The position numbers and the translations under genes are program-made. From an uncultured Gammaproteobacteria bacterium (GTDB lineage Bacteria; Patescibacteriota; Microgenomatia; Levybacterales; UBA12049), in assembly GCA_964424775.1 (NCBI GenBank), contig CAYRJZ010000003.1, positions 124,127 to 188,126 on the forward strand: DNA of 64,000 nucleotides, in the 5' to 3' direction. Positions 19,647-52,299 of this stretch are shown here, one piece after another (within the stretch, counting starts at the first letter, position 1; each line of letters starts with the position of its first letter). A model generated the notes under the pieces. The model saw only the letters and a program-made list of their open reading frames with translations. It ran no database searches and was not told the DNA's origin.

Positions 19647-19685
19647 GACTGCCTCCGGTAAAGCTACAGCAGGGTCTCCCTGCCA

Positions 19686-19701: not shown

Positions 19702-19794
19702 GAAAAATATCGATAAATCGAGACTTATCGCTAATCATCAAAAACTCCTGTGCCGGAGCCCAAGAAAGTTCGTGGAATTTGCCGTAGTCGACGG

Positions 19795-20169: not shown

Positions 20170-20240
20170 GGTAATTCTCCTCAGCAGATACAAACCCACG
20201 ACCTGTGGGTTAGCCTTTGACGAAGACCACGAAAAAAGCC
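20170..20240. promoter_or_regulatory. type-2 conserved leader (GGTCTTCGTCAAAGGC ... CCCACAGGTCGTGGG hairpin)
   Basis: Aligned to the other type-2 leaders. Confidence 0.45.
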
Positions 20241-34242: not shown

Positions 34243-35178
34243 TTATTTCTTCTCCACTTTATGACCGCCAAATTCATGCCGAAGTGCCGCCACCATCCGA
34301 GCTGCAAAGGATTCACGAACTTTACTATCTGTTTTTGAACGGTGTCTAAAGTCTAGTGATTGATCAATGTTTTCAGCAAATACACCTTCTTCTTTCGCTT
34401 GATTAACAGTCCACTCAGCTTCTCCTGTTGCATCAATGACACCATCCAATTCAGATAAAGTTGGATCTTTTTCTAAGGCATTTTTCGCACACTCCATAAG
34501 AAAACTTGTCACAATTGTTCCTCTCTGCCATAACTTCGCTGTTTGCAAAAGATCTAAATCATAAGGAGATTTTTCTAAAACGCCAAACCCTTCCCCGATC
34601 GCCTGCATCATTCCATACTCAATACCGTTATGTACCATTTTCACAAAATGACCTGCACCACCTTCTCCAAAATACTCATATCCACCGTTTGGTAGTATTA
34701 ATGTCTCAAGAAGTGGCTTAATTTCATCAAATGCAGACTTTTCTCCTCCAATCATGAGTGGATACCCATTTTCTGCTGCTATTACCCCCCCACTCACACC
34801 TATTCCCAAGAATCTTATGCCTTTTTCCCTCAGCTCTTCAAAACGTCTCTGTGTATCTTTATAAAAAGCATTTCCTCCATCAATAACAATGTCACCTTTC
34901 TCAACATAAGAGACAACTTCATCAAGTACACCTTGCGTTGCTTCACCTGCAGGAAGCATGAGCCAAATTATTCGTGGTGACGTAAGTCCTTTTACAATAC
35001 TTTGAATATCATTTGCTGAAATAAATGAGTCCTGAAGATTTTGATCTGCTAAATGTAATTTAAACTGTTCTAATACATCAGCTGATCGATTCCATCCAAC
35101 AACTGTATGGCCTCCTGAAAGAAGTTTTTCTACCATGCGGGTACCCATCTTCCCAAGTCCGATAAATCCTATTTGCAT
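34243..35178 (-). CDS. gnd: 6-phosphogluconate dehydrogenase (decarboxylating), short Gnd/YqeC-like form
   Basis: Start moved to MQIGFIGLGKMG (Rossmann GxGxxG). C-terminal domain of 6PGDH type. Confidence 0.8.
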   Translation of the reverse strand: MQIGFIGLGKMGTRMVEKLLSGGHTVVGWNRSADVLEQFKLHLADQNLQDSFISANDIQSIVKGLTSPRIIWLMLPAGEATQGVLDEVVSYVEKGDIVIDGGNAFYKDTQRRFEELREKGIRFLGIGVSGGVIAAENGYPLMIGGEKSAFDEIKPLLETLILPNGGYEYFGEGGAGHFVKMVHNGIEYGMMQAIGEGFGVLEKSPYDLDLLQTAKLWQRGTIVTSFLMECAKNALEKDPTLSELDGVIDATGEAEWTVNQAKEEGVFAENIDQSLDFRHRSKTDSKVRESFAARMVAALRHEFGGHKVEKK

Positions 35179-35182
35179 ATAT

Positions 35183-36607
35183 TTAAAGCCACTTCCTCCC
35201 ATCTCGCTCTATGAGTTCGTTTGCGCCGTCTGGCCCCATACTTCCATCCTCATATACATATAATTCAGGCTGGAATTTCTCCCACCCTTCCAAAATATCA
35301 GTCATAAACTCCCATGAACTAGATAACTCGTCTGATCTGTTAAAAAGTGTCTGGTCAGATGCAAAAATATCTAACAATAATTTTTGATACGCATCTGTCC
35401 CTTTTACTCCAAAATCAGAGTCATAGGAAAATTTCATATTGACCTCACCTAGTGCCACTCTCGTTCCCGGTTTTTTTGCAATTACTCTCATACTAATTCC
35501 CTCATCAGGTTGAATTCTAATAGTCAGGACATTTCCAATTTCTGGACATCCATACTCCTTAAAGAGGATATGACATGTTTGTCGAAAAACAAGTGATATT
35601 TCTACCACATCCTTTTTCATTTTTTTCCCTGCCCGGGCATAAATTGGAACACCCTTAAAACGTGGAGTATTCAGGAAAAATTTCATAGCAACATATGTCT
35701 CAGTCTGTGAATCTGGTGCAATGTCTTCTTCATTTTTATATGAAGCATACTGCCCACGTACCACATTTTTTTCAACTTCAGAAGGTGTAATTTTCTGCAA
35801 TGATTTTATTGCGTTTGCACGCGCATCACGAACATCTTCCTTCATAAAAGATTTTGGCTGCTCCATTGTCACTGCTGCTATGAGTTGTAATAAATGATTT
35901 TGCGCAACATCTCGAAGATTGCCAACACCATCAAAAAATTTTCCTCTTTTTGTGATGCCGTTTTTTTCACTCACCGTTACTTGAATATGATCAACGTACT
36001 CTTTATTCCAAACAGGCTCAAAAATTGAATTTGCGAAACGAAACGCAATCATATTCTGAACAGTATCTTTTCCTAAATAATGATCAACTCTAAATATCTG
36101 TTTTTCATCAAAAATTGTATCGAGTTTAGCATCTAGCTGTCGTGCTGTTTCAAGATCTCTTCCAAATGGTTTTTCAATAATAATTTTTGTCCACTTATTG
36201 CTTCCTTGGCCACATCCCTCGGAAAGCTTTGTCGTGTGGAGATGTTCCAAAATTGGTTCATAATTACTAGGAGGTGTAGCCAAGTAAAAAAGTCTTGTAA
36301 CACACGCTCCCATTTGTTCATCAATTTTTTCAAGTCTTTTTATCAGGGACAAATATCCTTCTTGATTTTGAAAATCACCCTGTTGATAATAAAGATGCCG
36401 ACTAAATTCCTCCCATTTCGCATCCTGAACTAAGTTATCAAAATGAACTCGTAAGTTTTCATCACGTAGTTTTCTTCGTGCAAAACCGAAAACAAAAAAA
36501 TCACTAGGAAGTAATCCTTCTTTAAAAAGTGAAAAAAGAGCAGGAATTAATTTATAGTGTGCGAGATCACCTGTTACCCCAAAGATGACCATGACAAATG
36601 GAGACAT
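35183..36607 (-). CDS. zwf: glucose-6-phosphate 1-dehydrogenase
   Basis: GVTGDLA NADP-binding motif and the signature RVDHYLGK. Confidence 0.9.
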   Translation of the reverse strand: MSPFVMVIFGVTGDLAHYKLIPALFSLFKEGLLPSDFFVFGFARRKLRDENLRVHFDNLVQDAKWEEFSRHLYYQQGDFQNQEGYLSLIKRLEKIDEQMGACVTRLFYLATPPSNYEPILEHLHTTKLSEGCGQGSNKWTKIIIEKPFGRDLETARQLDAKLDTIFDEKQIFRVDHYLGKDTVQNMIAFRFANSIFEPVWNKEYVDHIQVTVSEKNGITKRGKFFDGVGNLRDVAQNHLLQLIAAVTMEQPKSFMKEDVRDARANAIKSLQKITPSEVEKNVVRGQYASYKNEEDIAPDSQTETYVAMKFFLNTPRFKGVPIYARAGKKMKKDVVEISLVFRQTCHILFKEYGCPEIGNVLTIRIQPDEGISMRVIAKKPGTRVALGEVNMKFSYDSDFGVKGTDAYQKLLLDIFASDQTLFNRSDELSSSWEFMTDILEGWEKFQPELYVYEDGSMGPDGANELIERDGRKWL

Positions 36608-36773
36608 AAAACACATTATACAAACTCAGGTTTGAATAACAAGAGGTTACTTCGTCGTAAGTAGCAAATAGAAATACGATAAAACAATCAGAACTATAAT
36701 TATGAGAAGAATTATTGCTAATTTACCTTTTGAGTATCCCAACAGTTGCAGTAATGCTTCAACAGGATGCATA

Positions 36774-37565
36774 TCAAATCTTTTGATCTGTAATAATAAT
36801 TGTTCGTCTTGCAATTTCGGGTCTTTTGAAAAATCTGCCTGGCACTTCTTCTTCAGGACCATCTTGAAAAACCTGTTCGAGTGCAAATTTCTTATCTTCA
36901 CCAAAAACGAGGACAACAAAAAGATCTAACATTGAAAGCCCCATGAATGTCATCGTTATCCGTTCTTTAAATGGACCTTTCAAGTCACTAAAAGCTCCAA
37001 CGAGTGCACCTGGATCATTTGACGTAAAGAGTGGATTTTGGAATGCTTCAATTGTACTTGCCTGTGATTCTTTTCTATTCCCTGCAATACCTGCTGTGTG
37101 TCCATCAAGTCCAATTCCAAGTATCCCAATACTCTTTGGAAATCCCGCAAAAAGATATCTTAATGTCATATCATAATTCTTTGCTGTTCCAGCCAAGTCT
37201 TGTTGTTCTTCAAGAAGGATTGGATAGAAAGGAACACCTTTCTCAGTTAACATAGGGAGAAGCCCTGTGTCACGAATCATTTTTTCATTGCTTGTATTAT
37301 GAAATTTACTTCCGTATCTTTCATCAATTAATGCCAACGCACCAGGAAAAAGTTTTTTATCTATTGCGAGGTTTTCATAGAGATCCTTAGGAGTTCTTCC
37401 ACCGGAAAGATAGAGAACACTCTTTCGATCTGCCAATGGAATGAGTATTTCTTTTGCAATTTTAAATCCTTCATACATGAGTGGGACACGACATACAGTA
37501 ATTCCTTCTCTATCAACTGTCTGAATATTATGTGTTAAAAGGATATTTTTAACTTCACTAACCAT
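36774..37565 (-). CDS. pgl: 6-phosphogluconolactonase (NagB/Pgl family)
   Basis: LSGGRTP motif. Positioned with zwf and gnd. Confidence 0.78.
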   Translation of the reverse strand: MVSEVKNILLTHNIQTVDREGITVCRVPLMYEGFKIAKEILIPLADRKSVLYLSGGRTPKDLYENLAIDKKLFPGALALIDERYGSKFHNTSNEKMIRDTGLLPMLTEKGVPFYPILLEEQQDLAGTAKNYDMTLRYLFAGFPKSIGILGIGLDGHTAGIAGNRKESQASTIEAFQNPLFTSNDPGALVGAFSDLKGPFKERITMTFMGLSMLDLFVVLVFGEDKKFALEQVFQDGPEEEVPGRFFKRPEIARRTIIITDQKI

Positions 37566-38804: not shown

Positions 38805-39983
38805 TCACAGGAGGAACTGAAATACATCCTTAAAGGTAACGAGAACAATGAGCGATAAGAGAACTGCCATTCCGATAGTGTGTGCCAAAGTCTCAAATTT
38901 TGGATTGACTTTTTTCCTCGTAACTCCTTCTATAAGAATAAAGAAAAGTCTTCCTCCATCAAGAGCAGGTATAGGAAGAATATTAAAGACAGCAAGTGAA
39001 ATAGATAAAATTCCAGCTAAGTTAAGAACTTGTAATACTCTTTCTTTTAGATCTGGTATCTGAACAATAGTTCCAACGAGAGAATAAATACCAACTGGGC
39101 CAGCAACTCCTTCACCAATAGGAGCAGCATTTCTTTCCTGAATCGATACTTTGACAAGTTGAGCCATTAAATTAAAGTTATAACTCATGAGGTTATATGG
39201 ATGGATAAATCCTGAGAAAACTTTCTGAATTGGAGAATCATATGAAAGAACTGCTGTGCGAGACTCAAAAAGTCCGACACCAAGCGCACCTTGATTTTTC
39301 CCTGGATTGACCCGAGGTGTAACTTTTTTCGTCACAACTTTTTGTGTTTCAGGACTTCTCATGACAAGAGTCACTTCTTTTCCCTGCTGTTTTTTAACGA
39401 TATCTGAGAATTCACTTGTACTTTCAATAGGCTCATTATTTAGCTTCAGAACTTGAACAAATTCAGGAACTCCCGCTTTTTCGGCTGGGGATCCTTTCTC
39501 AATACTGGAAATATACACATCACTTCTGATCGTATCATTTACTCCTTTAAAATCATGTTCTCCGAGAAGCGGTAATTCCGTCTTAAAATTTGAAAGACCG
39601 AGGAATGCATAATAAATCACAACAGCAAGGAGGGTATTCATGACGACACCTGCAGTTACGACTGCTGCTCTCTGATGAACTGGACGTGCAAAAAATGCCC
39701 GCTTTTTATCTTTTCCTTTTATCTTTTCACTTGGGTCTGAAAGATCAACTCTTCCCCCACCTGCTTCATCTTCACCAAATAATTTAACAAATCCTCCAAT
39801 TGGTAAAAGATTTATTGAGTAAAGCGTCTCGCCAATTTTCTTTCCCCAGACACGCGGAGGAAATCCATAACCAAATTCTTCAACTTTAATTCCTAATTTT
39901 TTTGCAACGATATAATGCCCAAATTCATGTATGAGAACTAATACTGAAAGAATAAGGAGAAATACAAGAAGTGTAACGATCAT
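38805..39983 (-). CDS. rseP: RIP zinc metalloprotease RseP (site-2 protease, M50)
   Basis: HEFGHY (HExxH) at the N-terminal TM, a PDZ region and the C-terminal LDGG motif. Confidence 0.85.
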   Translation of the reverse strand: MIVTLLVFLLILSVLVLIHEFGHYIVAKKLGIKVEEFGYGFPPRVWGKKIGETLYSINLLPIGGFVKLFGEDEAGGGRVDLSDPSEKIKGKDKKRAFFARPVHQRAAVVTAGVVMNTLLAVVIYYAFLGLSNFKTELPLLGEHDFKGVNDTIRSDVYISSIEKGSPAEKAGVPEFVQVLKLNNEPIESTSEFSDIVKKQQGKEVTLVMRSPETQKVVTKKVTPRVNPGKNQGALGVGLFESRTAVLSYDSPIQKVFSGFIHPYNLMSYNFNLMAQLVKVSIQERNAAPIGEGVAGPVGIYSLVGTIVQIPDLKERVLQVLNLAGILSISLAVFNILPIPALDGGRLFFILIEGVTRKKVNPKFETLAHTIGMAVLLSLIVLVTFKDVFQFLL

Positions 39984-40627: not shown

Positions 40628-41083
40628 TTAGATCGCAAGCCGCTTGAATTCACGAACTGTAATGTTTTCTCCAATTTTACCAATGACACTCTTAATTACT
40701 TGCTCAATTGTCTGGCCAGCATCCCGAATATATTCCTGCTTGAGGAGCTCATCAACTGACTCTGGATTCATCGCTGCGATGTGAAGAGCTAATTCTTTAG
40801 CAAGTGCTTTAAATTCATCTGTTTTTGCTACAAAATCTGTTTCACACTGAAGAACAACAAGAACTCCTACCTTTGCACCATTATGAATGTATGCCTCAAC
40901 AATTCCCTGTGATGTTTCACGATCTGATTTCTTTTCAGCTTTTTCCAATCCACGCTTCTTGAGCCAATCTTTTGCCTGATCATAATTGTTATCAGTTTCC
41001 TCAAGTGCCATTCGGCAATCAGCGATAGATGCTGATGTTTCAGCTCGGAGTTTTTTCAGTAGATCAATATTTGCTTGTGCCAT
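40628..41083 (-). CDS. tsf: elongation factor Ts (short form)
   Basis: N-terminal LLKKLRAETSASIADCRMALEE UBA-like motif. 151 aa. Confidence 0.85.
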   Translation of the reverse strand: MAQANIDLLKKLRAETSASIADCRMALEETDNNYDQAKDWLKKRGLEKAEKKSDRETSQGIVEAYIHNGAKVGVLVVLQCETDFVAKTDEFKALAKELALHIAAMNPESVDELLKQEYIRDAGQTIEQVIKSVIGKIGENITVREFKRLAI

Positions 41084-42146: not shown

Positions 42147-42668
42147 ATGAAAAAAATAATTACTTCTTTTAAAAAAGCTAATATTACTCTCACAATTTTT
42201 ATTCTGCTCAGTTTGGGGACTCTCGTTGTCGGGACAAAAGTTGTACTAGCGTACCTACCAACTATTCAATATTTTTTGAATATTAATTCGAAGCCTTCAT
42301 CACAAGAAGCGAGAATTTTAGAAAAAATGGGGAAAAAGCTCTCCGAAACTGAAAATAAAAATCTTTTTAATGATGTAAAAAACTCAAGTAGAAATTATCC
42401 CTACCTAGAAATTGCTAAATGTATACCTCGTCCTCGCATTATGCACATTGAAGCTAATACTTACCTTTTGGTTCACAATGCTGATAATCAAATCAGACAT
42501 ATATCTTTTGGCCCTGATAAAAAGTATGCTATTTACCCCGGTGAAACAAAAGGAATTCTTTTGAACTTTTTCCCACATATCCCAGCATATATTGCTTATG
42601 GCTGCGACTCTCATCCAAACGCAGTCGGAATTATTTACGCAACATCTCCCATTTCAATATTACAGTAG
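42147..42668 (+). CDS. membrane-anchored/secreted cupredoxin-like small protein (copy A)
   Basis: N-terminal TM or signal. ANTYLLVHNADNQIRH and YGCDSHPNAVGII align to amicyanin/plastocyanin TVxWxNxDxxxHN and YxCTPHPFMRG. The Cys and both His are retained; the axial Met is replaced. Confidence 0.5.
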   Translation: MKKIITSFKKANITLTIFILLSLGTLVVGTKVVLAYLPTIQYFLNINSKPSSQEARILEKMGKKLSETENKNLFNDVKNSSRNYPYLEIAKCIPRPRIMHIEANTYLLVHNADNQIRHISFGPDKKYAIYPGETKGILLNFFPHIPAYIAYGCDSHPNAVGIIYATSPISILQ

Positions 42669-43835
42669 AGAGCTGCATGAACTATTGAGATAATCTTTAG
42701 GTACTTTTGAACAAAGTTGAGTTAGCTCAGATAGATTTAATACGTAAGCTTTGAACTGGCGTTGAAGCATATCATAACATGCTGCAGGAGCGTCTTCTGG
42801 CAATGAATCACATAACTTAAATGGCAAAACCCTATCCCCCATGGAAAAGAATGAATTTGCAATACTTATGACACACTGACTCTTCCATCCAACTGGCATT
42901 CTGTCACATGAGATATACACCTTCTCCAAATTTCCATTCACCATAGGAACAATTTGACGAGCGACAGAATCAAAACATGTCTCTCTATACTCAATATTCT
43001 TTACCTCTGAGCACATTTTACCGATACCTACCAAATCACCTGGCCTTATATCTTTAAACACCATTTGTGGTTGATTGGACCAGCATGCTTTTCGATATTT
43101 TTCATCAATACGTGAGTCATAACATGGATAGGTAGGATCGTCCATTTTTATCCACTTATCAGGAGATGGCTGACCATTATTGTGAACCGCCCAATTGTTC
43201 TCCATAAATGCGCCGTCATAACAATTATAAGCAGTGAAATCTTTTGATAATGTTGCAACTGTATCGCAGTCTTTCAATGCTTGAGGTAAATTCGCATAGT
43301 CTCGCCACGCCAAAAGACCATGACCAATTGCATGTGAGCATTGAGTGGCTGTTGCCTCACTAATATTTTGACACTCTTTCATTATTGAGTCGAGCTGGTC
43401 CATGCCATGTTCTCCAATGGAACGAATGAGAAACCCATGATAACAAGAAGAAAGGAAATAATCTTTACAATAGATCATCCCTTTTTCTTTAAACTTTTCG
43501 TACAGCCAGTCACCGGCAGTATGATTGAGAAGATGTGCTGTCCCATCAAAAGGAATTCCTGAATGCTGTAACTCCTCTTGTGCCTGGACTGGTCCTACCC
43601 GCTCCATAAGCTGACGATACAGTGTCTCTTTAACCTTCATCACCTGGGTTTCTTTTATGCCTTGAATTTCTTTTGCATATGCAGAACTTACTGGAGTTGA
43701 CTGAGGCTTACTGGATGGGAAAAAAGACTTAACTATAAAACCGATAAGGACAATATTAATGACAATAAGAAGACTTACAGCTGCGAGTCTTTTCCCTCTC
43801 TTTTTTTTTAAAATTGCTGCAAGTGATTTATACAT
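42660..43835 (-). CDS. membrane-anchored Cys-pair repeat protein (8 x C-x7-14-C)
   Basis: N-terminal TM. Eight units, each C-x(7-14)-C followed by an aromatic-Gly/Ala-hydrophobic stretch. Paralogous to the C-terminal domain of 43863..45227. Confidence 0.55.
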   Translation of the reverse strand: MYKSLAAILKKKRGKRLAAVSLLIVINIVLIGFIVKSFFPSSKPQSTPVSSAYAKEIQGIKETQVMKVKETLYRQLMERVGPVQAQEELQHSGIPFDGTAHLLNHTAGDWLYEKFKEKGMIYCKDYFLSSCYHGFLIRSIGEHGMDQLDSIMKECQNISEATATQCSHAIGHGLLAWRDYANLPQALKDCDTVATLSKDFTAYNCYDGAFMENNWAVHNNGQPSPDKWIKMDDPTYPCYDSRIDEKYRKACWSNQPQMVFKDIRPGDLVGIGKMCSEVKNIEYRETCFDSVARQIVPMVNGNLEKVYISCDRMPVGWKSQCVISIANSFFSMGDRVLPFKLCDSLPEDAPAACYDMLQRQFKAYVLNLSELTQLCSKVPKDYLNSSCSSLL

Positions 43836-43862
43836 GTCCTATCCCATGTTATTATAACTCTA

Positions 43863-45227
43863 ATGCGGATTAAAATAAAAAAGCATCTTCTACTCCAAGC
43901 ACTCATCGCTATTACTTTTATAAATGTTCTTGTCATTTCTTTTCTGCTCATTAATCCACTAAAAGAACAAGTTATTGTCATGAATAAGGATGGATTTTCG
44001 CCTGATACACTTCGGGTAGCTCAAAATACCAAAGTCGTTTTTGTCAATAAAGACTCAACAGACAGATGGCCGGCAAGTAATATTCATCCAACACACGATG
44101 AGTACCCTGAATTTGATCCTCAACGACCTTTAAGACCATATGAGGAGTGGGAATTTTATCCTGAAAAAATTGGTACCTGGCAATTTCATGATCATCTCCT
44201 TCCTCATAAAAAAGGAACAATTATCGTTACTTCACCCTCCTTTATTCAGCAATTTTTTCAAAGATTTCAGAACAAACCTGCAAAAAAAAGTCTCGCTAAT
44301 CGTAAAAATGATCTCAATATAAAAAATAATGAACAAAATACACAAACATATAATCAAATGAGAGAAATTGCAAAAAATGAAGGGACTCAAGCTGTCTGGC
44401 AATTCGTCCTCACGACATATGGAGACCAAGATGGTACTCAAGGATCTATTCATGACATTGCTCACTTTGCGGGCAAACTCATTTATGAGAAAGATGGACT
44501 CTCAGGCATTTCTATCTGTACTCCTGTCTTTGCATTTGGCTGTTACCATGGACTCCTTGATACTGCATTTTCCAAAAATCTCGACCAGCTAGATGAAGCT
44601 GAAAAAGCATGCGCTACACTTGGGGGGAATAAATCGGGTCCATACAATGCCTGTGTTCACGGTATAGGTCATGGAGTTGCTAGTTATCATAAATCTAAAG
44701 ACCTTAAGGCTGCTCTGTCTTCCTGTGAAAAAATGGTAAAAGAGGCACAGTACTCGTGTTTCGACGGTGTCTTCATGGAATTTGACCGTGAAGCTCCAAG
44801 TTCATACTATAAAAAAGATGATCCCCTCTCTCCTTGCAACACTCTTGACGTTAAATACCAATATCCGTGTGGTCGCAATCAAGTAAGTGTCATGACCAAC
44901 CGTCACAAATTATCTTTTAACGAAATTGTAAAAGTATGTGCAGCATCTTCACAAAGAGACCTGAAAAATGCATGTTTTGTCGCACTGGGATTTCAAACTG
45001 TCTATCAGTCCGTCGGTGATACAGAAAAAATAAAAAGTATGTGTCTATCACCCAAAAATAATGACTTTGCTAGCCAATGTCTTTCAGCCGCAGCGGGCGA
45101 ACTCATGTTTCAAAATATGGATAACTGGCAAAATAAATATCTTGAGCTTTGTAACGCATTGTCCGGAGAAAACAATCAAAAATGTCTCGATTATACGAAT
45201 ATGATAAGAAAAGAATATAATCTGTAA
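43863..45227 (+). CDS. membrane-anchored fusion protein: N-terminal cupredoxin-like domain + C-terminal Cys-pair repeat domain
   Basis: N-terminal TM. KVVFVNKDSTDRWPASNIH and WQFHDHLLPHKKGTIIV align to the cupredoxin strands, with Asp in place of the ligand Cys. C-terminal 7 x C-x(8-14)-C units homologous to 42660..43835. Confidence 0.6.
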   Translation: MRIKIKKHLLLQALIAITFINVLVISFLLINPLKEQVIVMNKDGFSPDTLRVAQNTKVVFVNKDSTDRWPASNIHPTHDEYPEFDPQRPLRPYEEWEFYPEKIGTWQFHDHLLPHKKGTIIVTSPSFIQQFFQRFQNKPAKKSLANRKNDLNIKNNEQNTQTYNQMREIAKNEGTQAVWQFVLTTYGDQDGTQGSIHDIAHFAGKLIYEKDGLSGISICTPVFAFGCYHGLLDTAFSKNLDQLDEAEKACATLGGNKSGPYNACVHGIGHGVASYHKSKDLKAALSSCEKMVKEAQYSCFDGVFMEFDREAPSSYYKKDDPLSPCNTLDVKYQYPCGRNQVSVMTNRHKLSFNEIVKVCAASSQRDLKNACFVALGFQTVYQSVGDTEKIKSMCLSPKNNDFASQCLSAAAGELMFQNMDNWQNKYLELCNALSGENNQKCLDYTNMIRKEYNL

Positions 45228-45491: not shown

Positions 45492-45533
45492 AAGATGCAA
45501 GGATATTGATATAGTATATCTTTATCATTGTAT

Positions 45534-46631
45534 ATGTCAGAAAGAGACAGTTCATATAATTCTCCTCTTCAGGAAGCTTTTTCCCAACGTCTTTCCCGAC
45601 GAAAATTTATCCGTCAAAGTGCACTCGCCTTAGGTTCTCTAGCTGCGGGAACACTTCTTAGAACACATGAATCATCTGCAGCAAATGCATTTGATGGAGG
45701 TGTAGAAGATGCAGTGCCAATCTACAATCTTGATAGACTTTTTAATGGAGAAATAAAAAGACCTGAAGATTTGAAGCATTTCTTGCAAACTAGGTTAATC
45801 CCACCTGATGCTAGGCTAGCGGAGAGAGCTCACACACCAATTAATGATTTCACCTTAAATCCTGATAAAGAACTTTTTGCAAATCTTGAAGGATATAAAA
45901 GTCCTAAAAATAGACTCGATAAAGCTGTTCTTAAATTTTTTGCATTAGCAGAAGGAGTACGTAGTGATACTGAAACAATGGCTGAAATGGAAATAGAAAC
46001 AGTTGAGGATAGACTTGCTACTCCTGTAGGTGAAAGAGAACCCTATGCAGGTCTTCCAGAAGCAGTGCCAGAGGAAAGAATTCTTGAATTACTTGCAGAT
46101 CCTGATTATCGTATTCCACTCTTTGCATATAAAGAAGGAGAGATTGATCCAAAAAAGTATGAAAAGTTCGATATTGATCCACATGTTGGAATTGAAATTG
46201 AATTGCTTGATGATAGACCAGAGAGAAAACCTATGATTGGATTATACGCTAACTATGGATTTACCCCCACTGTCATTGAACATCAGGTAATTCAGGACGG
46301 GGAACAAGATACAAGATATGGTTTACGCATTGGGTTATTTTCAAATGACTATAAATTTCCAGGTAGTCCAGCTCAATCTCCTCAAGAAGAAGCAGATGGT
46401 TTATATTCAATTTTACTTTACCAATACATGGAATCATCCATATATGTAACCCCTCCACTTATGCAATTTTATAATAGTACAAACGGAGAAAATACATATT
46501 GGGCTAAAAGACAAGAATCTCAGGGTTACGTTTTCTATCCAGATATTATAGAGCAAATTGGTGGTCCTTTAAATGAAAATGGAAGTTTCAATTCAGCTCC
46601 TGTACTTCATATTGATTCACCAAACCTCTAA
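45534..46631 (+). CDS. Tat-signal exported protein of unknown function (module copy 1)
   Basis: Start placed at the ATG (MSERD...). The ORF track uses an upstream TTG. Twin-arginine motif SRRKFIRQSALALGSLAAG. Paralog of 50627..51706. Confidence 0.6.
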   Translation: MSERDSSYNSPLQEAFSQRLSRRKFIRQSALALGSLAAGTLLRTHESSAANAFDGGVEDAVPIYNLDRLFNGEIKRPEDLKHFLQTRLIPPDARLAERAHTPINDFTLNPDKELFANLEGYKSPKNRLDKAVLKFFALAEGVRSDTETMAEMEIETVEDRLATPVGEREPYAGLPEAVPEERILELLADPDYRIPLFAYKEGEIDPKKYEKFDIDPHVGIEIELLDDRPERKPMIGLYANYGFTPTVIEHQVIQDGEQDTRYGLRIGLFSNDYKFPGSPAQSPQEEADGLYSILLYQYMESSIYVTPPLMQFYNSTNGENTYWAKRQESQGYVFYPDIIEQIGGPLNENGSFNSAPVLHIDSPNL

Positions 46632-46676: not shown

Positions 46677-47219
46677 ATGCAATTAAAGAGAAAATACCTA
46701 TATTTATTAATTTTTATTCTATTTCTAATTTCAATAATTTTAATTGGATTAGTTTATCTCAAGAACAATACGTTGATACATATTAAAAACTCTGATCAAA
46801 ATATCACTGTATTTTATAAAAAAACAGAATATCTTAATAAATTATTAACTTCTTGGGGGATAGTAACTAATAATAAAAACTCAATTCAAAAAATAAACAT
46901 TACTTTCACTTCCCAACCTCAAGCAGAGTATGTTGTCAAAGATATTGTTACAAAAGAGACATATCAGAGTTTAAGTTGGAATGAAACAGACAATGAATAT
47001 AATATTATAATTAACTTAGAAAGTTCTTATCATAATAAACTATCAGAAAGAGATCTATCATTAAATGCAAATGGATCTGTAGTTAAGGCTTTGTACTATT
47101 TATCACATTCTGAAAATGCAAAATCTCAAAAAATACCCACAGAACTTTTAAAGGTTTATAGTGACTTTACAAAAATCAAAGAACTTCCTTTTACTGCAAT
47201 TTTCAATAAGAGTAAATGA
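46677..47219 (+). CDS. N-terminally membrane-anchored hypothetical protein (module copy 1)
   Basis: TM helix YLYLLIFILFLISIILIGLVYL. Paralog of 51762..52298. Stop overlaps the start of the next gene (ATGA). Confidence 0.55.
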   Translation: MQLKRKYLYLLIFILFLISIILIGLVYLKNNTLIHIKNSDQNITVFYKKTEYLNKLLTSWGIVTNNKNSIQKINITFTSQPQAEYVVKDIVTKETYQSLSWNETDNEYNIIINLESSYHNKLSERDLSLNANGSVVKALYYLSHSENAKSQKIPTELLKVYSDFTKIKELPFTAIFNKSK

Positions 47220-50071
47220 AATTAAATTCACTAATATATAAACTTTCTTTAGTAATATTATTTCTACTATTTTCTTTTGTTTTAAATTCTAAATCAACAT
47301 ATGCTCAGTCCTGTAGTGGTTGGGTTGTATGTTGTTTGGCTTGGCAAGAAGGGGGATGCTTCGTAAATGGGACTGGAACTGACATAGCTAATCCTCCTGT
47401 CCCATGTAATCCTCTTCAAAATCCTGGAAATTGTACGTGCAATGAGGGATCATGTTACTCTGCAACGAGTACCTATTGCGATGCCTCCTGCGGAGCTGGG
47501 GCATGTGATGCCAGTATTCCAGGGCATGTAAGTAATTGTTCCTGGTCTGGAGGATATGGCTCAAATCCTGGATACGGTTCAAATCCATCATATTCTTATC
47601 CATACCCATATCCTTACCCCTATCCATATCCTTATCCCTATCCCTATCCTGCGCCTGCTGATTTTCATGTTCAGTCTTTCTATACTGCAGATGTAGATGG
47701 CAATAGGAGTTATAACTTCGCTGAAGGGGAAAATATTTACTGGTATGCTCGAATTCGCAATGATGGCGAACTTTATCCAGAATCATCTAATGATCGAATT
47801 TATACTAACTTCTATCAAAACCAACCAAATCCAATGGGCATCACTTCCAATCACACCTCTATTTATATCGACACGAACGACAACTGGGCTCCTGAAACAA
47901 ATAGAACATTTGCTTCCTATCCTGACGGAGAAAATAGAGGTTCATATGAAGGAGCATTTAGCTTTGAGCGAATTGGCGGCCAAACGAATAATGGACTTCC
48001 CCTCTATGCGAGAATCTTTGTAGATCACGACAATAGAGTTGATGAGCCATCAGGACATAATACCGATGAAAATCAAGCTACTTTCCGCTATACCGTTGGA
48101 GATACACCCGATCTCCAAATAACAGATTTCCATCTTCGAGATAGTAATGGTGAAGAGACAAATCGCTTTGCCCCAGGGCAAAGAATATACACCAAGCTCA
48201 CCTACTACAATTATGGTGGAACAACTGCTTTTAACAGAGACCCAGATGATCCATATATTTATACAGCTTTTTATAGAAGTCGGGAAAACCCTGTTGCAGA
48301 AGACACTGCTTCTAGTGCCAACATGTATATTCGTGGAAATGAACTTGATCCAAATGACGGTGACACCTTTTATTGCAAACCTGATCCAGGAAATAAATGT
48401 AGTCGGTTTACTGCTGATGATTACTGGACAGTAGATGAGGCAGGAAGATATACTGCTCGCGCATATGTTAACTACAATGATGATGTTGTTGAAGGGCCGA
48501 AAAGTAACAATCAAGCAACGTATGAATATTCCGTAGGCCGAGTAATATCAGGTTACGTATACAGTGATACAAACGAGAGTGGAACGAAAGCAACAAGTGA
48601 ACCAGGACTAGCCAACATTCGAGTAACTCTCTACAGGAAAGCTGCAAATGGACAATACACAACTCGTATAGGGTCTACACGAACTGATAATGATGGATTT
48701 TATGACTTTGATGCGCTTGAGGATAATGATTATCGTGTATTTATAGACACTCCAGACCAACCAGCAAATTATGCATTTACTACACCAACAGAGTATGAAG
48801 TAACGTTACCTCCAAATACCAGACGTGATTTTGGACTTCTCGAAAATACCTTTACGATTTCAGGGAATATATTCTTAGATCAAAATACCAATCGTGTCAA
48901 AGATGGAGAAGAAGCAAATGCGACAAATATAAGTAGCACGAGCATCACGATTGATGGTTCAAATACCGGTGTTACTCTTAATAGTGACGGAAGTTATATT
49001 ATCCAAAATGTAAGTTATGGTACACACACTATTCGATTTAGCCCACTTCCATCTGGTTATTTTATTACCCATCCTCGCTCAACTACTCCTCCCTCATATA
49101 CGGTAACAGTTGGTAATTCTTGTGCACCCTCCCCACTCAATCCAGGTGGAACATGTAGCGATAGAAATATCATCAATCTTAATTTTGGAATAAAAGAAGG
49201 AGAGCCATGGATCCAGGCATATGGACTTGATATCCGATTTGATGGAGGAATAAATAATCCTCTTCCTGCTTCACCTAATGCAGCTTGTGGAGGTGCGTAT
49301 ACCATTATTGCCGGAAGTGGTAGCACACCTGGGGTTGGATATACGGGTAGTGTTAGTCCAGACTTTGGACTTGGTGCAATTTCAGCATTAAATAGAATTG
49401 TTGGAGGAACAACATACCCCGAAGTATTTACCCCTCTCTCAACAAATGTAATTCGAACATCATATGGGTATTTAAAGAGTACAATGAGGCAGTCTAATAT
49501 TTCATCCTCTCCTCTTCCAAATGTCTGTTCTGGTGGGATATCAGACTGTAGCCTGACCGGCAGTCTTCCAAGTGGTATTTATGAAGCATCAACGAGCGCA
49601 ACACTTAATGGATTTACCGTTGGAGCTGACCGGGATATAATTCTTATCATCAATGGCGACATTCTTATAAGAGGTGCTATTGATGTTCCAACAACTTCCA
49701 CACTTACCGTTATATCTTCTGGAAGTATTCGTGTTGCAAGCACTGTGGGAACAACAGCCTCTTGCCCTGCTCCCAGCAATGGAACGACAGCAAATGGAAC
49801 ACTTGAAGGATTTTATAGCGCAGATCTCAACTTCACACTTGATACCGGTGCTGACTGTTCAGCTAGTACATCAGATCTCCAGCTCAATATGCAAGGGAGT
49901 GTTGTAGTGAATGCGGCAAAAAGAGGTGGAGACTTTATTAACAATCGCACACTTTGTACCGACAATACTCAATATCCATCCTTTACCATTCGAGAAAGAC
50001 CTGACTTTATCTTGAATGCACCAGATATTATCAAAACTCAAAGCTTTATTTGGCAGGAGGTCGCACCATAA
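47216..50071 (+). CDS. large secreted surface protein: N-terminal Cys-rich domain, YP-repeat linker, CnaB/SdrD-B-like (carboxypeptidase-regulatory-like) domains (module copy 1)
   Basis: Signal peptide. Cys-rich QSCSGWVVCCLAWQEGGCFVNGTG...CTCNEGSCY...CDASCGAGAC. 9 x YP repeats. Segments SGYVYSDTNESG...IRVTLYRK...NDGFYDFDALEDNDYRVFID typical of the Cna-B/SdrD-B fold. Conserved C-terminus IIKTQSFIWQEVAP. Confidence 0.7.
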   Translation: MKLNSLIYKLSLVILFLLFSFVLNSKSTYAQSCSGWVVCCLAWQEGGCFVNGTGTDIANPPVPCNPLQNPGNCTCNEGSCYSATSTYCDASCGAGACDASIPGHVSNCSWSGGYGSNPGYGSNPSYSYPYPYPYPYPYPYPYPYPAPADFHVQSFYTADVDGNRSYNFAEGENIYWYARIRNDGELYPESSNDRIYTNFYQNQPNPMGITSNHTSIYIDTNDNWAPETNRTFASYPDGENRGSYEGAFSFERIGGQTNNGLPLYARIFVDHDNRVDEPSGHNTDENQATFRYTVGDTPDLQITDFHLRDSNGEETNRFAPGQRIYTKLTYYNYGGTTAFNRDPDDPYIYTAFYRSRENPVAEDTASSANMYIRGNELDPNDGDTFYCKPDPGNKCSRFTADDYWTVDEAGRYTARAYVNYNDDVVEGPKSNNQATYEYSVGRVISGYVYSDTNESGTKATSEPGLANIRVTLYRKAANGQYTTRIGSTRTDNDGFYDFDALEDNDYRVFIDTPDQPANYAFTTPTEYEVTLPPNTRRDFGLLENTFTISGNIFLDQNTNRVKDGEEANATNISSTSITIDGSNTGVTLNSDGSYIIQNVSYGTHTIRFSPLPSGYFITHPRSTTPPSYTVTVGNSCAPSPLNPGGTCSDRNIINLNFGIKEGEPWIQAYGLDIRFDGGINNPLPASPNAACGGAYTIIAGSGSTPGVGYTGSVSPDFGLGAISALNRIVGGTTYPEVFTPLSTNVIRTSYGYLKSTMRQSNISSSPLPNVCSGGISDCSLTGSLPSGIYEASTSATLNGFTVGADRDIILIINGDILIRGAIDVPTTSTLTVISSGSIRVASTVGTTASCPAPSNGTTANGTLEGFYSADLNFTLDTGADCSASTSDLQLNMQGSVVVNAAKRGGDFINNRTLCTDNTQYPSFTIRERPDFILNAPDIIKTQSFIWQEVAP
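47597..47650 (+). repeat. 9 x (TAT CCN) Tyr-Pro dipeptide repeat linker
   Basis: tat cca tac cca tat cct tac ccc ... seen directly. The paralog carries a poly-Pro linker at the equivalent place. Confidence 0.7.
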
Positions 50072-51761: not shown

Positions 51762-52298
51762 ATGCTTATTAAGAAAAAATATATTTATCTTCTTCTTTCC
51801 TTTTTCTTATTAAGTATTTCTTTGATCTTAGGAATATTCATTTCAAGAAAAAATACATTTATTCAACTTCATGATAAAGATGTTAACTTCTCTTTTTCGT
51901 ATACTGAAACTGATCTTTTTAAAAGTTATCTTCAGCAATGGAAGATAAGAGAAAATGGAAAGAGTTCTCCTACACGAGTAAGTATTACATTTACGACTTC
52001 GCCACAAGCCAGTTATGTTATGCGTGATTATGTCACAAAAGAAATGATTCAAAGTTATTCATGGAAAAAAAATAAGAATTCTATCATCATTGTTATTCAT
52101 CTTGATCCCAAATATCACACAAAACTAAATGAACGTGATCTTTCATTAAGTGCAAACGCAGCAGTACTCAAAGCTCTCTATTTTCTCTCTCACCCAGAAC
52201 AAACAAAAGTGGATGTCATTCCCAAAGAACTTATGGATGTCTATTCAAAATTTCAAAAAGAAAAAATAATCCCAATACAAGTTGGAAAAAATAATTAA
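51762..52298 (+). CDS. N-terminally membrane-anchored hypothetical protein (module copy 2)
   Basis: Paralog of 46677..47219. Confidence 0.55.
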   Translation: MLIKKKYIYLLLSFFLLSISLILGIFISRKNTFIQLHDKDVNFSFSYTETDLFKSYLQQWKIRENGKSSPTRVSITFTTSPQASYVMRDYVTKEMIQSYSWKKNKNSIIIVIHLDPKYHTKLNERDLSLSANAAVLKALYFLSHPEQTKVDVIPKELMDVYSKFQKEKIIPIQVGKNN

Positions 52299-52299
52299 T

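What the first reader, a model, noticed from the sequence alone, without database searches (positions are those of the whole stretch)
42660..45227. Divergently transcribed pair of membrane-anchored Cys-pair-repeat proteins, one fused to a cupredoxin-like domain
Both proteins contain 7-8 units of C-x(7-14)-C followed by an aromatic-G/A-hydrophobic segment, with a period of about 35-45 aa. This suggests disulfide-stapled helical repeats in an extracytoplasmic domain. The fusion of this domain to a cupredoxin-like domain in 43863..45227 links the two families functionally. I do not recognise the repeat as a named family.
Basis: seen in the sequence. Interest (0 to 1): 0.55.

Follow-up and report, generated by a model that had tools for sequence, protein, structure and literature searches.

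The report
Unnamed disulfide-stapled His-cluster domain pair
Two neighbouring genes of an ultra-small (CPR/Patescibacteria) bacterium encode cell-surface proteins built on a widespread but unnamed helical domain that is stapled by 7-8 disulfides and carries an invariant five-histidine pocket, and its regular partnership with a cysteine-free copper-protein-like domain points to an unrecognised extracellular metal-handling system.

Summary
A (42660-43835, -) and B (43863-45227, +) are divergent, N-terminally membrane-anchored paralogs (hhalign E 2.8e-41). They carry 8 and 7 C-x(7-14)-C pairs respectively, and B has a genuine cupredoxin fold.

The shared ~300-aa module matches no Pfam, NCBIfam or PDB family, yet it hits 4,391 protein clusters; every source label that names a clade specifically names a Patescibacteria lineage. 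AlphaFold gives a confident all-alpha hairpin array. Cys pairs 1-7 are 93-100% conserved, and the Cys count is even in 97% of 491 domain instances, which fits disulfides.

Five His plus Met and Glu are at least 98% invariant, and coevolution places them in one pocket formed by the first four repeats.

The cupredoxin is a Cys-free variant in which Asp replaces the copper-binding Cys (HPxH...H-D-H-x3-H in 136 of 136 sequences).

A-type and B-type genes are adjacent or fused in 23 of 27 loci, and stand-alone copies of the cupredoxin also sit next to module genes.

Best reading: a membrane-tethered, hetero-oligomeric extracellular metal-binding or redox module, analogous in logic to EfeO/EfeM. The metal and the reaction are unknown.

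The parts
42660..43835 (-). Gene A: 391-aa membrane-anchored protein consisting of the Cys-pair module only (A-type)
   Evidence: ORF. 257 homologs, all labelled hypothetical and none with a Pfam domain. 16 Cys and 10 His/Asn/Asp/Glu positions (H101, N104, H105, H133, H168, H172, D207, E212, N213, H218) are invariant in 42 sequences.
43731..43787 (-). A signal-anchor / TM helix (residues 17-35), preceded by 7 Lys/Arg
   Evidence: Kyte-Doolittle 19-mer score 2.96. AlphaFold helix 2-38.
43062..43544 (-). A residues 98-258: helix a0 plus repeats 1-4, carrying the invariant H101-x3-H105, C-Y-H133-G, C-x-H168-x2-G-H172-G, C-Y-D207-G-x-F-M211-E212-N and C-W-S-N254-Q motifs (predicted pocket)
   Evidence: Conservation is at least 98% for the 5 His, M211 and E212 over 491 domain instances. 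DCA gives 21 couplings between the flanking segments against 4.6 expected, and a0 couples to B1-B4.
42663..43043 (-). A residues 265-391: repeats 5-8, a regular disulfide-stapled hairpin ladder (pair 8 is present in only about 55% of family domains)
   Evidence: hhalign between units gives E 1.6e-4 to 1.8e-3. DCA shows B4-B5-B6-B7 contacts. Pair 8 statistics.
43836..43862 (.). 27-bp divergent intergenic spacer between the two start codons
   Evidence: Sequence. The only promoter-like feature is a -10-like TATTAT 7 nt before B's ATG, and promoter-like hits are not enriched over shuffles.
43863..45227 (+). Gene B: 454-aa protein with TM anchor, Cys-free cupredoxin, linker and Cys-pair module (B-type)
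   Evidence: ORF. 619 homologs share the architecture. 14 Cys and H197, H201, H229, H270, D301, E306 are invariant.
43899..43955 (+). B signal-anchor / TM helix (residues 13-31)
   Evidence: Kyte-Doolittle score 2.46. AlphaFold helix 7-30.
43962..44231 (+). B cupredoxin-like domain (residues 34-123) with the invariant W-P-A-S-x-x-H75-P-T-H78, D85 and H109-D110-H111-L-x-P-H115 motifs and no Cys
   Evidence: Pfam PF13473, E 4.2e-7. Foldseek TM 0.75 to 5fc9 and 4hcf/4hcg. Amicyanin Cys92 and the H-C-H motif of the 9cck multicopper oxidase both align to D110. The motif is invariant in 145 of 145 and 136 of 136 domains.
44232..44327 (+). B inter-domain linker (residues 124-155), predicted disordered
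   Evidence: pLDDT below 50 for residues 138-156.
44328..45224 (+). B Cys-pair module (residues 156-454), homologous to A residues 63-371
   Evidence: BLASTP E 2e-27. hhalign E 2.8e-41.
42147..42668 (+). Possible accessory gene: 173-aa TM-anchored beta-rich protein with two conserved Cys, convergent with A and overlapping its 3' end by 9 bp
   Evidence: ORF. The same position is occupied by homologs in the close relatives L002 and L003. In 7 more distant loci that slot holds a PF03640 protein instead. No family match for the window protein.

Best explanation
A and B are paralogous subunits of a membrane-tethered protein assembly on the outer face of the cytoplasmic membrane of a Patescibacteria (CPR) cell.

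Shown here:
- Each protein carries a ~300-aa all-alpha module of 7-8 helix-loop-helix units.
- The Cys pairs are invariant and their parity is that expected for one disulfide per unit.
- Five His, one Met and one Glu are essentially invariant across the superfamily.
- The module is obligatorily partnered with paralogs of itself and with a Cys-free cupredoxin domain, whether fused or adjacent.

Inferred:
- Helix a0 and repeats 1-4 close into a bundle whose interior is lined by H101, H105, H133, H168, H172, M211 and E212 (plus D207 and N254). This pocket binds a metal ion or a binuclear metal centre.
- Copper is the most likely metal, because His/Met ligand sets are typical of extracellular copper sites and the fixed partner is cupredoxin-derived. 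Iron is the alternative.
- The cupredoxin domain of B has Asp at the position of the type-1 copper Cys but keeps the flanking His (HPxH ... H-D-H-x3-H). It therefore forms a non-blue His/Asp metal site that captures or redox-cycles the ion and hands it to the helical pockets of B and A.
- This is the same division of labour proposed for EfeO (cupredoxin plus helical metal domain) and its cupredoxin-less paralog EfeM.
- Repeats 5-8 act as a rigid, disulfide-stabilised stalk or docking surface.

The physiological output (metal acquisition, detoxification or an oxidase/reductase reaction) is not resolved.
For: Family and architecture:
- A vs B: BLASTP E 2e-27 and hhalign E 2.8e-41.
- AlphaFold pLDDT 90.2 and 85.9, all-alpha hairpins.
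- All Cys are invariant in both 42-sequence alignments. Cys pairs 1-7 are 93-100% conserved, and the Cys count is even in 475 of 491 instances.
- DsbA-type genes lie next to family genes in 2 loci.

Pocket:
- H101, H105, H133, H168 and H172 are at least 99% conserved; M211 99%, E212 98%, G171 100% over 491 instances, including the multi-copy giant proteins.
- In coevolution analysis the top coupling is N104-S130, and long-range couplings include L102-N254, L136-W252/S253 and D207-N254.
- There are 21 couplings between segments against 4.6 expected, and no circular shift reaches 21.

Cupredoxin:
- Pfam match above threshold.
- TM 0.75 to solved cupredoxins, including B. anthracis Cupredoxin_1 crystallised with Cu and with Zn. 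E. coli EfeO also matches over the full length.
- Asp110 aligns to the Cys ligand of amicyanin and to the H-C-H motif of the 9cck multicopper oxidase.
- The motif is invariant in 136-145 domains.
- The His75 loop has pLDDT below 50, as expected for an apo metal loop.

Partnership:
- A second family domain is adjacent or fused in 23 of 27 loci. Fused cupredoxin-B-A polypeptides occur in L013, L016, L017, L020, L021, L026, L027, and B-type + A-type fusions without a detected cupredoxin in P0021 and P0023.
- Stand-alone cupredoxin variants sit next to module genes.
- Cupredoxin is the dominant fusion partner, in 10 of 48 long representatives.

Precedent:
- The Cup+M75 and M75-only paralogs of the Efe operon, both with metal sites (PMC9174327).
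Against:
- No metal transporter, chaperone or permease is a conserved neighbour.
- Many family members, including 5- and 7-copy giant proteins, have no cupredoxin at all, so the pocket must work without it.
- Other fusion partners and neighbours are cell-envelope enzymes: GH3, polysaccharide deacetylase, PMT_2, PBP1A and glycosyltransferases. These fit a glycan-directed role equally well.
- D207 is only 69% conserved.
- Inter-domain coevolution between the cupredoxin and the pocket was not enriched (41 couplings vs 63.5 expected at Neff 113).
- Invariant His, Met and Glu could serve catalysis or heme ligation instead.
Confidence: 0.45

Rival explanations
1. Cell-envelope glycan or peptidoglycan binding or processing module. 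The solenoid is a surface scaffold like Sel1-like/Hcp or the superhelical domain of Slt70. The His/Glu/Asn pocket binds or hydrolyses a sugar or muropeptide, possibly as a metal-dependent hydrolase, and the cupredoxin is merely a beta-sandwich accessory domain.
For: - Fusion to a GH3 glycosidase in the 7-copy giant P0247 and to a polysaccharide deacetylase and FG-GAP repeats.
- Neighbours include PMT_2, class-A PBP, VanW, GT2, GT4 and Bac_transf.
- In the window, large SdrD_B-type surface proteins lie just downstream.
- Foldseek's generic hits include the Sel1-like protein AlgK.
- From general knowledge, Hcp proteins were described as penicillin-binding proteins (Luthy 2002, cited in PMC8892353).
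Against: - These fusions and neighbours are individually rare (1 of 48 each; 2-3 of 29 loci), whereas the cupredoxin partnership is systematic.
- The cupredoxin keeps an invariant 5-His/2-Asp loop signature, which a passive accessory domain would not need.
- Five invariant His plus Met is atypical for glycan-binding or glycosidase sites.
- No match to any glycoside hydrolase, lyase or lytic transglycosylase family.
Confidence: 0.22
2. Heme-binding redox protein of the COA7 type. A disulfide-tethered alpha/alpha-repeat protein ligates heme b through His/Met (and further bis-His sites) between repeats. It acts as an extracellular electron-transfer or thiol-disulfide redox partner of the cupredoxin-like domain.
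For: COA7 consists of five disulfide-tethered alpha/alpha repeats. It binds heme through His119/Met156 between repeats 3 and 4, despite having no classical heme fold, and it acts on copper chaperones (PMC8892353). The module here has an invariant Met211 and five invariant His on neighbouring helices of repeats 1-3.
Against: - No homology to Sel1-like repeats: HcpC, which matches COA7 at E 3.6e-17, aligns to A1 with 0.2% probability.
- From general knowledge, CPR bacteria typically lack heme biosynthesis and cytochromes.
- Seven invariant polar ligands are more than one heme needs.
- Gly residues packed next to the His (CYHG, HGxGHG) suggest tight helix packing rather than a porphyrin-sized cleft. 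This is inference only.
Confidence: 0.08
3. The conserved Cys pairs are not disulfides but thiolate ligands for Cu(I) or Fe-S clusters, making the module a metal-storage or electron-wire protein comparable to Csp copper-storage bundles.
For: There are 14-16 invariant Cys per domain. The partner domain is related to copper proteins. From general knowledge, many CPR bacteria live in anoxic settings where extracellular thiols could stay reduced.
Against: - Cys occur strictly as one pair per hairpin, with variable loop lengths of 7-14 residues, as in the Hcp/COA7 disulfide staples.
- Even parity holds in 97% of domains.
- B has 7 pairs, which cannot be grouped into four-Cys clusters.
- Export is by a Sec-type signal anchor with no twin-arginine motif.
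- DsbA-type neighbours occur in 2 loci.
Confidence: 0.05
4. A purely structural or adhesive surface protein pair (for example for host attachment by an epibiotic CPR cell), in which the invariant residues stabilise the fold.
For: The alpha-solenoid fold is typical of protein-protein interaction scaffolds. Multi-copy giant proteins and paralog arrays resemble surface adhesin families.
Against: Adhesins evolve fast, whereas orthologs of this module keep 40-70% identity across CPR classes. The module also holds seven polar residues at 98% invariance or better, even in distant paralogs. That pattern is typical of catalytic or cofactor sites.
Confidence: 0.1

Closest known systems
Helicobacter cysteine-rich proteins (HcpB 1KLX, HcpC 1OUV) and other disulfide-bridged Sel1-like repeat proteins, including mitochondrial COA7
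   Same: Secreted or extracytoplasmic all-alpha proteins built from helix-turn-helix units of about 35 aa. In each unit a disulfide joins the end of helix A to the start of helix B. COA7 additionally binds a cofactor through His/Met between repeats and works in a copper pathway (PMC8892353).
   Different: No sequence relationship: Pfam Sel1 finds no hit and hhalign to HcpC gives 0.2% probability. Cys spacing is variable (x7-x14) rather than fixed at x7. The N-terminal repeats appear to close into a bundle around an invariant His5-Met-Glu cluster, which SLR proteins lack. The module is obligatorily paired with paralogs and with a cupredoxin.
EfeO / EfeM (cupredoxin 'Cup' domain + imelysin-like M75 domain; EfeUOB/M iron uptake)
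   Same: An extracytoplasmic two-module design, with an N-terminal EfeO-type cupredoxin (PF13473) followed by an all-alpha domain that has its own metal site. A cupredoxin-less paralog is encoded alongside (PMC9174327). E. coli EfeO 7wgu is a full-length Foldseek hit. UniRef names a B homolog 'EfeO-type cupredoxin-like domain-containing protein'.
   Different: The helical domain is unrelated to M75/imelysin: no Pfam hit, no HxxE motif, and overall rmsd 22 A. No EfeU/FTR1 permease or EfeB peroxidase is linked. The helical domain is disulfide-stapled and repeat-built.
Cupredoxin domain 3 of multicopper oxidases / domain 1 of NirK (motifs HPxHLHGH and H-C-H-x3-H-x4-M; general knowledge)
   Same: B's cupredoxin carries H-P-x-H and, 34 residues later, H-D-H-x3-H. 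The profile alignment to the Nitrosopumilus multicopper oxidase 9cck puts H-D-H on H-C-H. Weak profile hits to Fet3p, ascorbate oxidase and laccases fall on these motif regions.
   Different: The type-1 Cys is Asp in 136 of 136 sequences, and there is no axial Met. There is only one cupredoxin domain, and the L1/L2 HxH motifs of a second cupredoxin domain are absent. No Cu-oxidase Pfam family matches.
Blue copper proteins (amicyanin, plastocyanin) and B. anthracis Cupredoxin_1 (4hcf with Cu, 4hcg with Zn)
   Same: Same Greek-key beta-sandwich fold (TM 0.64-0.81). Amicyanin is the best PDB profile hit (E 2.6e-4), and its His53 ligand aligns to H75.
   Different: There is no Cys ligand, so a blue type-1 site is impossible. 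The ligand loops instead carry 5 His and 2 Asp.
Deoxyhypusine hydroxylase (HEAT-repeat di-iron enzyme; general knowledge, not tested here)
   Same: A precedent for an alpha-solenoid whose repeats donate His and carboxylate ligands to a buried binuclear metal centre.
   Different: It is cytosolic, has no disulfides, uses His-Glu motifs, and showed no detectable similarity (no HEAT Pfam hit in A or B).

Membership tests
Cupredoxin superfamily, Pfam Cupredoxin_1 (PF13473, EfeO-type): B residues 34-123 | Profile match above the curated gathering score | tested here: met
   30.4 bits against a cut-off of 27, E 4.2e-7. Most B homologs carry a precomputed PF13473 hit.
Cupredoxin superfamily, Pfam Cupredoxin_1 (PF13473, EfeO-type): B residues 34-123 | Greek-key beta-sandwich fold | tested here: met
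   The AlphaFold model has 8 strands between residues 36 and 123. Foldseek gives TM 0.75 to 5fc9 and 4hci/4hcf, probability 1.00.
Type-1 (blue) copper proteins | His-Cys-His(-Met) copper ligand set | tested here: not met
   The domain contains no Cys. Asp110 occupies the Cys position in alignments to amicyanin and 9cck, and this holds in all 145 related domains.
Multicopper oxidases | Four His-rich signature motifs (HxHG, HxH, HPxHxHG, HCHxxxHxxxxM) spread over two or more cupredoxin domains | tested here: not met
   Only HPxH and H-D-H-x3-H are present, in a single cupredoxin domain. No Cu-oxidase Pfam hit.
Sel1-like repeat / Hcp family (PF08238) | Helix-turn-helix repeats of about 36 aa, stapled by an intra-repeat disulfide in Hcp and COA7 | tested here: met
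   Period 31-48 aa with one Cys pair per helix-loop-helix unit. This is an architectural similarity only.
Sel1-like repeat / Hcp family (PF08238) | Sequence or profile similarity to Sel1 repeats | tested here: not met
   No Sel1 or TPR Pfam hit at E up to 1. hhalign of A1 against HcpC (sequence verified as 1OUV) gives probability 0.2%.
EfeO/EfeM (imelysin-like, Peptidase_M75) | M75 helical-bundle domain with an HxxE metal motif | tested here: not met
   No Peptidase_M75 hit. The Foldseek match to EfeO 7wgu is driven by the cupredoxin, with overall rmsd 22 A.
EfeO/EfeM (imelysin-like, Peptidase_M75) | Genetic linkage to an EfeU/FTR1 permease and an EfeB peroxidase | tested here: not met
   Neither is in the window neighbourhood or among the recurrent neighbours in 29 loci. 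That table shows only the 25 commonest families, so single occurrences could be hidden.
New family proposed here (Cys-pair His-cluster module) | 7-8 C-x(7-14)-C hairpins plus H-x3-H, C-[YF]-H-G, C-x-H-x2-G-H-G and C-x2-G-x-F-M-E | tested here: met
   Both A and B carry every motif. The motifs are 93-100% conserved in 491 instances.
Csp-type copper storage proteins | Four-helix bundle with its core lined by Cys thiolates that bind many Cu(I) ions | not tested
   Considered only. The position of the Cys at hairpin turns and their even parity argue for disulfides.
Metal-binding protein (generic) | Stoichiometric metal bound by the conserved His/Met/Glu residues | not testable with these tools
   Needs ICP-MS, spectroscopy or coordinates. 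Only conservation and coevolutionary proximity are available.

The most novel reading that the evidence does not exclude
The helical module and the Cys-free cupredoxin together assemble a new kind of multinuclear copper (or mixed-metal) centre at their interface. The cupredoxin keeps exactly those His that in multicopper oxidases and NirK point away from the type-1 site towards the inter-domain cluster (H78 of HPxH; H109 and H111 flanking the former Cys). The helical pocket supplies five more His, two of them as i/i+4 pairs. That gives eight His, the number that ligates the trinuclear cluster of multicopper oxidases. If true, CPR bacteria, which largely lack respiratory chains, would carry a widespread, structurally unprecedented extracellular oxidase or O2/ROS-handling enzyme built from a beta-sandwich and a disulfide-stapled alpha-solenoid.
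Probability: 0.06. Interest if true: 0.85.

Novelty: new variant of a known kind. Interest (0 to 1): 0.6.

Why it matters
CPR/Patescibacteria make up a large share of bacterial diversity, have tiny genomes, and depend on their cell surface for an epibiotic lifestyle, yet most of their conserved surface proteins are unannotated.

This module is abundant: 4,391 clusters at 50% identity, usually 2-5 paralogs per locus, and up to 7 copies in a single protein. It is highly conserved and has no name in any database searched. Its seven invariant polar residues and its fixed partnership with a remodelled cupredoxin give a concrete, testable hypothesis of an extracellular metal site for a lineage whose metal and redox biology is almost unknown.

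It also adds a third independent example, after Hcp and COA7, of disulfide-stapled alpha/alpha repeats. It documents a natural cupredoxin lineage in which the type-1 Cys is replaced by Asp. Defining it as a family would improve the annotation of thousands of 'hypothetical proteins'.

Tried and rejected
- **Family libraries:** Pfam, NCBIfam, PHROGs and PADLOC gave no family for the Cys-rich module or for the 173-aa and 367-aa neighbours.
- **PDB by sequence and profile:** nothing for the module.
- **Foldseek with the A model:** only generic HEAT/ARM/Sel1 solenoids at TM about 0.2, so no specific structural relative was accepted.
- **Homology to Hcp/Sel1:** rejected.
- **Model coordinates:** not exposed to scripts, so disulfide and ligand distances could not be measured. 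Coevolution was used instead.
- **Neighbourhood survey for a transporter or enzyme partner:** nothing consistent apart from PF03640 (7 loci), DsbA-type proteins (2 loci) and sugar transferases.
- **Literature:** searches on PF03640, COG4315, CPR + cupredoxin, CPR + cysteine-rich and CPR + disulfide found nothing about this family.
- **Exact look-up of protein A in assemblies:** not on record, so the source organism is known only by similarity to CPR genomes.
- **Inter-domain coevolution in B-type proteins:** no enrichment at Neff 113, inconclusive.
- **Promoter scan:** not informative for the 27-bp divergent spacer.
- **TAT-signal protein 45528-46631:** not conserved next to the pair in other loci and has no relatives in the PDB, so it was not counted as part of the system.
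- **Fe-S, Cu-thiolate and adhesin readings:** considered and ranked low (see the rival explanations).

Full report
**1. The observation**

The window encodes a 391-aa protein on the minus strand (A, 42660-43835) and a 454-aa protein on the plus strand (B, 43863-45227). Their start codons are 27 bp apart.

A has 16 Cys and B has 14. They fall into 8 and 7 pairs, with intra-pair gaps of 8-15 residues and inter-pair gaps of 21-33, giving a period of 31-48 aa. Such strict alternation appears in only 38 (A) and 101 (B) of 200,000 shuffles of the same residues. The two proteins are the most Cys-rich genuine genes of the window, at 4.1% and 3.0% against a median of 0.66%.

Each protein begins with a Lys/Arg-rich stretch followed by one strongly hydrophobic 19-mer, so the bulk of each protein lies outside the cytoplasmic membrane (helices). 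B residues 34-122 match Pfam Cupredoxin_1 above the curated threshold.

**2. The two proteins share one module**

A and B align by BLASTP at E 2e-27 and by profile-profile comparison at E 2.8e-41, over A63-371 and B156-454.

AlphaFold2 with 42-sequence alignments gives confident models (A: pLDDT 90.2, pTM 0.80; B: pLDDT 85.9, pTM 0.70):
- a TM helix;
- in B, a beta-sandwich (residues 36-123) followed by a disordered linker (138-156);
- an all-alpha array of helix-loop-helix units, with one Cys pair bridging the end of the first helix and the start of the second.

Profile-profile comparison of the individual units detects homology only among units 5-8 (E 1.6e-4 to 1.8e-3). Units 1-4 have diverged beyond detection.

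**3. No known family matches**

- Pfam, NCBIfam, PHROGs and PADLOC give nothing for the module.
- phmmer and profile searches of all PDB sequences give nothing.
- Foldseek with the A model returns only generic solenoids (VPS35, importins, designed ARM repeats, the Sel1-like AlgK) at E of 5e-3 or worse and TM about 0.2.
- The closest analogues I know are the disulfide-bridged Sel1-like repeats of Helicobacter Hcp proteins. I verified the HcpC sequence against 1OUV and compared it with the family profile. The result was probability 0.2%, so the resemblance is architectural and not homologous.
- Literature searches found no description of the family.

**4. The family is large and appears specific to CPR bacteria**

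- A retrieves 257 homologs and B retrieves 619 through the word-indexed search.
- An exhaustive profile search finds 4,391 clusters (50% identity) at E up to 1e-3, of which 2,738 are at E up to 1e-10.
- Source names, where present, are Patescibacteria lineages: Levy-, Davies-, Blackburn-, Chisholm-, Nomura- and Doudnabacteria, Paceibacterota and Spechtbacterales.
- Several machine-labelled TPA bins carry other names, but the one I could compare, L002, has the same rpsB-tsf-frr synteny as the window.
- UniRef annotates only the N-terminal domain of a B homolog, as an EfeO-type cupredoxin-like domain.

**5.

All Cys are invariant in both 42-sequence alignments. Over 491 non-identical domain instances, including the distant paralogs and the multi-copy giants:
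- Cys pairs 1-7 are 93-100% conserved. Pair 8 is present in about 55% of instances.
- The total Cys count is even in 475 of 491 instances. This is the parity expected for obligate disulfides.
- DsbA-type genes flank family genes in two loci.

More important, H101, H105, H133, H168 and H172 (A numbering) are at least 99% conserved. G171 is 100%, M211 99%, E212 98%, G208 99% and F210 96% conserved; D207 is 69%. These residues lie in the motifs H-x3-H, C-[YF]-H-G, C-x-H-x2-G-H-G and C-x-[D]-G-x-F-M-E-[N].

**6. Spatial arrangement**

- The strongest coupling of the whole domain is N104-S130, which ties the H-x3-H helix to the start of the CYH helix.
- Long-range couplings such as L102-N254, L136-W252/S253, D207-N254/S253, L103-A186, S167-N204 and I137-A176 connect the segments that flank the invariant residues.
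- Among the top 120 couplings, 21 link the five flanking segments, against a mean of 4.6 for circularly shifted controls. None of the shifts reaches 21.
- Couplings between non-adjacent segments number 7 against 1.3 expected, and 1.5% of shifts reach that value.
- Helix a0 couples to B1, B2, B3 and B4, whereas repeats 4-7 show only the neighbour-to-neighbour ladder.

I infer that a0 plus repeats 1-4 close into a bundle around the His5-Met-Glu cluster, and that repeats 5-8 form a regular stalk. This remains an inference from coevolution, not a measured geometry.

**7. The cupredoxin**

- The fold is confirmed by Foldseek: TM 0.75 to the Nitrosopumilus purple cupredoxin 5fc9 and to B. anthracis Cupredoxin_1 solved with Cu (4hcf) and with Zn (4hcg). 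E. coli EfeO 7wgu also matches across the full length.
- The best PDB profile hit is amicyanin (E 2.6e-4). Its ligand His53 aligns to H75 and its ligand Cys92 aligns to D110.
- The alignment to the multicopper oxidase 9cck places B's fHDHllP on YHCHAFP.
- The domain has no Cys. All 145 related domains carry W-P-A-S-x-x-H-P-T-H, D85 and H-D-H-L-x-P-H. H-P-x-H lies 34 residues (33-37) before H-D-H-x3-H in 136 of 136 sequences.
- From general knowledge, these resemble the multicopper-oxidase signatures HPxHLHGH and HCHxxxHxxxxM with Cys replaced by Asp. A blue type-1 site is therefore excluded, but a His/Asp (type-2-like) metal site is likely.
- The H75 loop has pLDDT below 50.

**8. Partnership**

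In 27 GTDB loci found with A-type patterns, a second family domain is adjacent or fused in 23, and a 24th locus has a truncated B start at the contig edge. The arrangements are:
- divergent B<>A, as in the window (L001-L004);
- tail-to-tail (L005);
- same-strand operons, as B-C-A triples in L010, L012 and L014 (L009: B next to a tandem A-A fusion);
- single cupredoxin-B-A polypeptides of about 815 aa (L013, L016, L017, L020, L021, L026, L027).

P0021 and P0023 are B+A fusions. Proteins of about 790 aa are cupredoxin + B + a third paralog. One locus has at least five paralogs in a row. Stand-alone copies of the same cupredoxin variant (112-135 aa) also sit beside module genes.

Cupredoxin is the dominant fusion partner, found in 10 of 48 long representatives. 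A plastocyanin-type domain, a polysaccharide deacetylase and FG-GAP repeats occur once each, and one 3,580-aa protein joins 7 modules to a GH3 domain.

**9. Other neighbours**

- The slot convergent with the A-type gene holds a PF03640 (Yx(FWY)xxD repeat, function unknown) protein in 7 loci.
- In the window and its close relatives L002 and L003, that slot holds an unrelated TM-anchored beta-rich 173-aa protein with two conserved Cys (42147-42668).
- No transporter is recurrent.
- Cell-envelope genes (PMT_2, PBP1A, VanW, GT2, GT4, Bac_transf) occur in some loci.

**10. Mechanism**

The best-supported reading (confidence 0.45) is a membrane-tethered, hetero-oligomeric extracellular metal-binding or redox module.
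- The helical pocket binds one or two metal ions through five His, Met and Glu.
- The remodelled cupredoxin provides a second His/Asp site that captures or redox-cycles the ion.
- The disulfide-stapled stalk gives stability outside the cell.

The logic parallels EfeO (Cup + helical M75 domain) and its cupredoxin-less paralog EfeM, which are encoded together and both carry metal sites (PMC9174327).

What is shown: homology, fold class, Cys parity, residue invariance, coevolutionary clustering, and gene linkage and fusion. What is inferred: disulfide formation, metal binding, the identity of the metal, and hand-over between the domains.

Rival readings are:
- a glycan- or peptidoglycan-directed module (0.22), supported by the rare GH3 and deacetylase fusions and by the envelope-gene neighbours;
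- a COA7-like His/Met heme protein (0.08; PMC8892353);
- Cys-thiolate metal storage (0.05);
- a purely structural adhesin (0.10).

An attempt to detect coevolution between the cupredoxin and the pocket in 128 B-type sequences was inconclusive.

**11. Novelty and score**

The kinds of thing involved are known: disulfide-stapled alpha/alpha repeats, and a cupredoxin joined to a helical metal domain. This family is unnamed, has no detectable relatives, and combines the two in a new way with a distinctive invariant pocket and a natural Cys-to-Asp cupredoxin. I rate it a new variant of a known kind, interest 0.6.

The most novel reading not excluded is an inter-domain multinuclear copper centre, with 3 His from the cupredoxin and 5 from the pocket. 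I give it a probability of about 0.06.

Noticed in passing
window 16400-20400 (between the 266-aa ORF at 15574-16374 (-) and the 466-aa ORF at 20867-22267 (-); I read these by eye as uppS-like and cysS-like, with no family search): GC content rises to 0.46-0.62 here against about 0.38 for the rest of the window. Five or six copies of a ~54-nt element with a GC-rich palindromic core (GGTCGTCCCCCCGGCTTACGCCGGGrGGACTCCCCAAGACA) occur at 16403, 16838, 17363, 17895 (weak), 18639 and 19307. The intervening segments hold small GC-rich minus-strand ORFs (102, 118, 81, 201, 173 and 92 aa); I did not check that there is exactly one per copy. Copies 4 and 5 carry compensatory changes in the palindrome arms. 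The region has no Rfam or tRNA match. It looks like an integron-like gene-cassette array or another mobile cassette system of foreign origin.
   Followed up: partly
window 46677-50071 and 51762-55110: A duplicated two-gene unit: a small ~180-aa TM protein followed by a ~950-aa surface protein (951 and 942 aa). The large proteins have SdrD_B / CarboxypepD_reg / SpaA-type Ig-like domains. The 951-aa protein (the only one whose sequence I read) has a Cys-rich N-terminus and a (PY)n run; both proteins have 22 Cys. Relatives of the 951-aa protein lie near the A/B pair in L001-L003.
   Followed up: partly
window 45528-46631 (+): A 367-aa protein with a twin-arginine (TAT) signal (TIGR01409, 18.1 bits against a cut-off of 16.7) lies directly downstream of B. 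It has no Pfam or PDB relatives and is not conserved next to the pair in other loci. A cofactor-exporting TAT substrate of unknown kind in a CPR genome.
   Followed up: partly
window 42147-42668 (+); L002:7091-7645, L003:7113-7589: A 173-aa TM-anchored, beta-rich protein with two conserved Cys, convergent with gene A and overlapping its 3' end by 9 bp. It has no family match. By eye the sequence pattern resembles a small cupredoxin-like sandwich, but no copper ligands are conserved.
   Followed up: partly
L007, L009, L010, L011, L014, L019, L023 (about 7.1-7.8 kb in most loci): In Parcubacteria-type loci the gene convergent with the A-type gene is a TM-anchored PF03640 (Lipoprotein_15, Yx(FWY)xxD repeat) protein of unknown function with a conserved C-x3-C. 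This is a recurrent and possibly functional partner of the module.
   Followed up: partly
window 40628-41083 (-): The 151-aa ORF between the ORFs I read by eye as rpsB and frr looks like a short EF-Ts, about half the usual bacterial length (length comparison from general knowledge; no family search was run on these three ORFs). The equivalent genes in L002 and L003 are also short (155-157 aa), so this is a lineage trait and not a truncation artefact.
   Followed up: no
window 34243-37565 (-): An oxidative pentose-phosphate cluster: a 6-phosphogluconate dehydrogenase-like gene, glucose-6-phosphate dehydrogenase and a 6-phosphogluconolactonase-like gene. It is followed by an M50 (RseP-type) site-2 protease at 38805-39983.
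   Followed up: no
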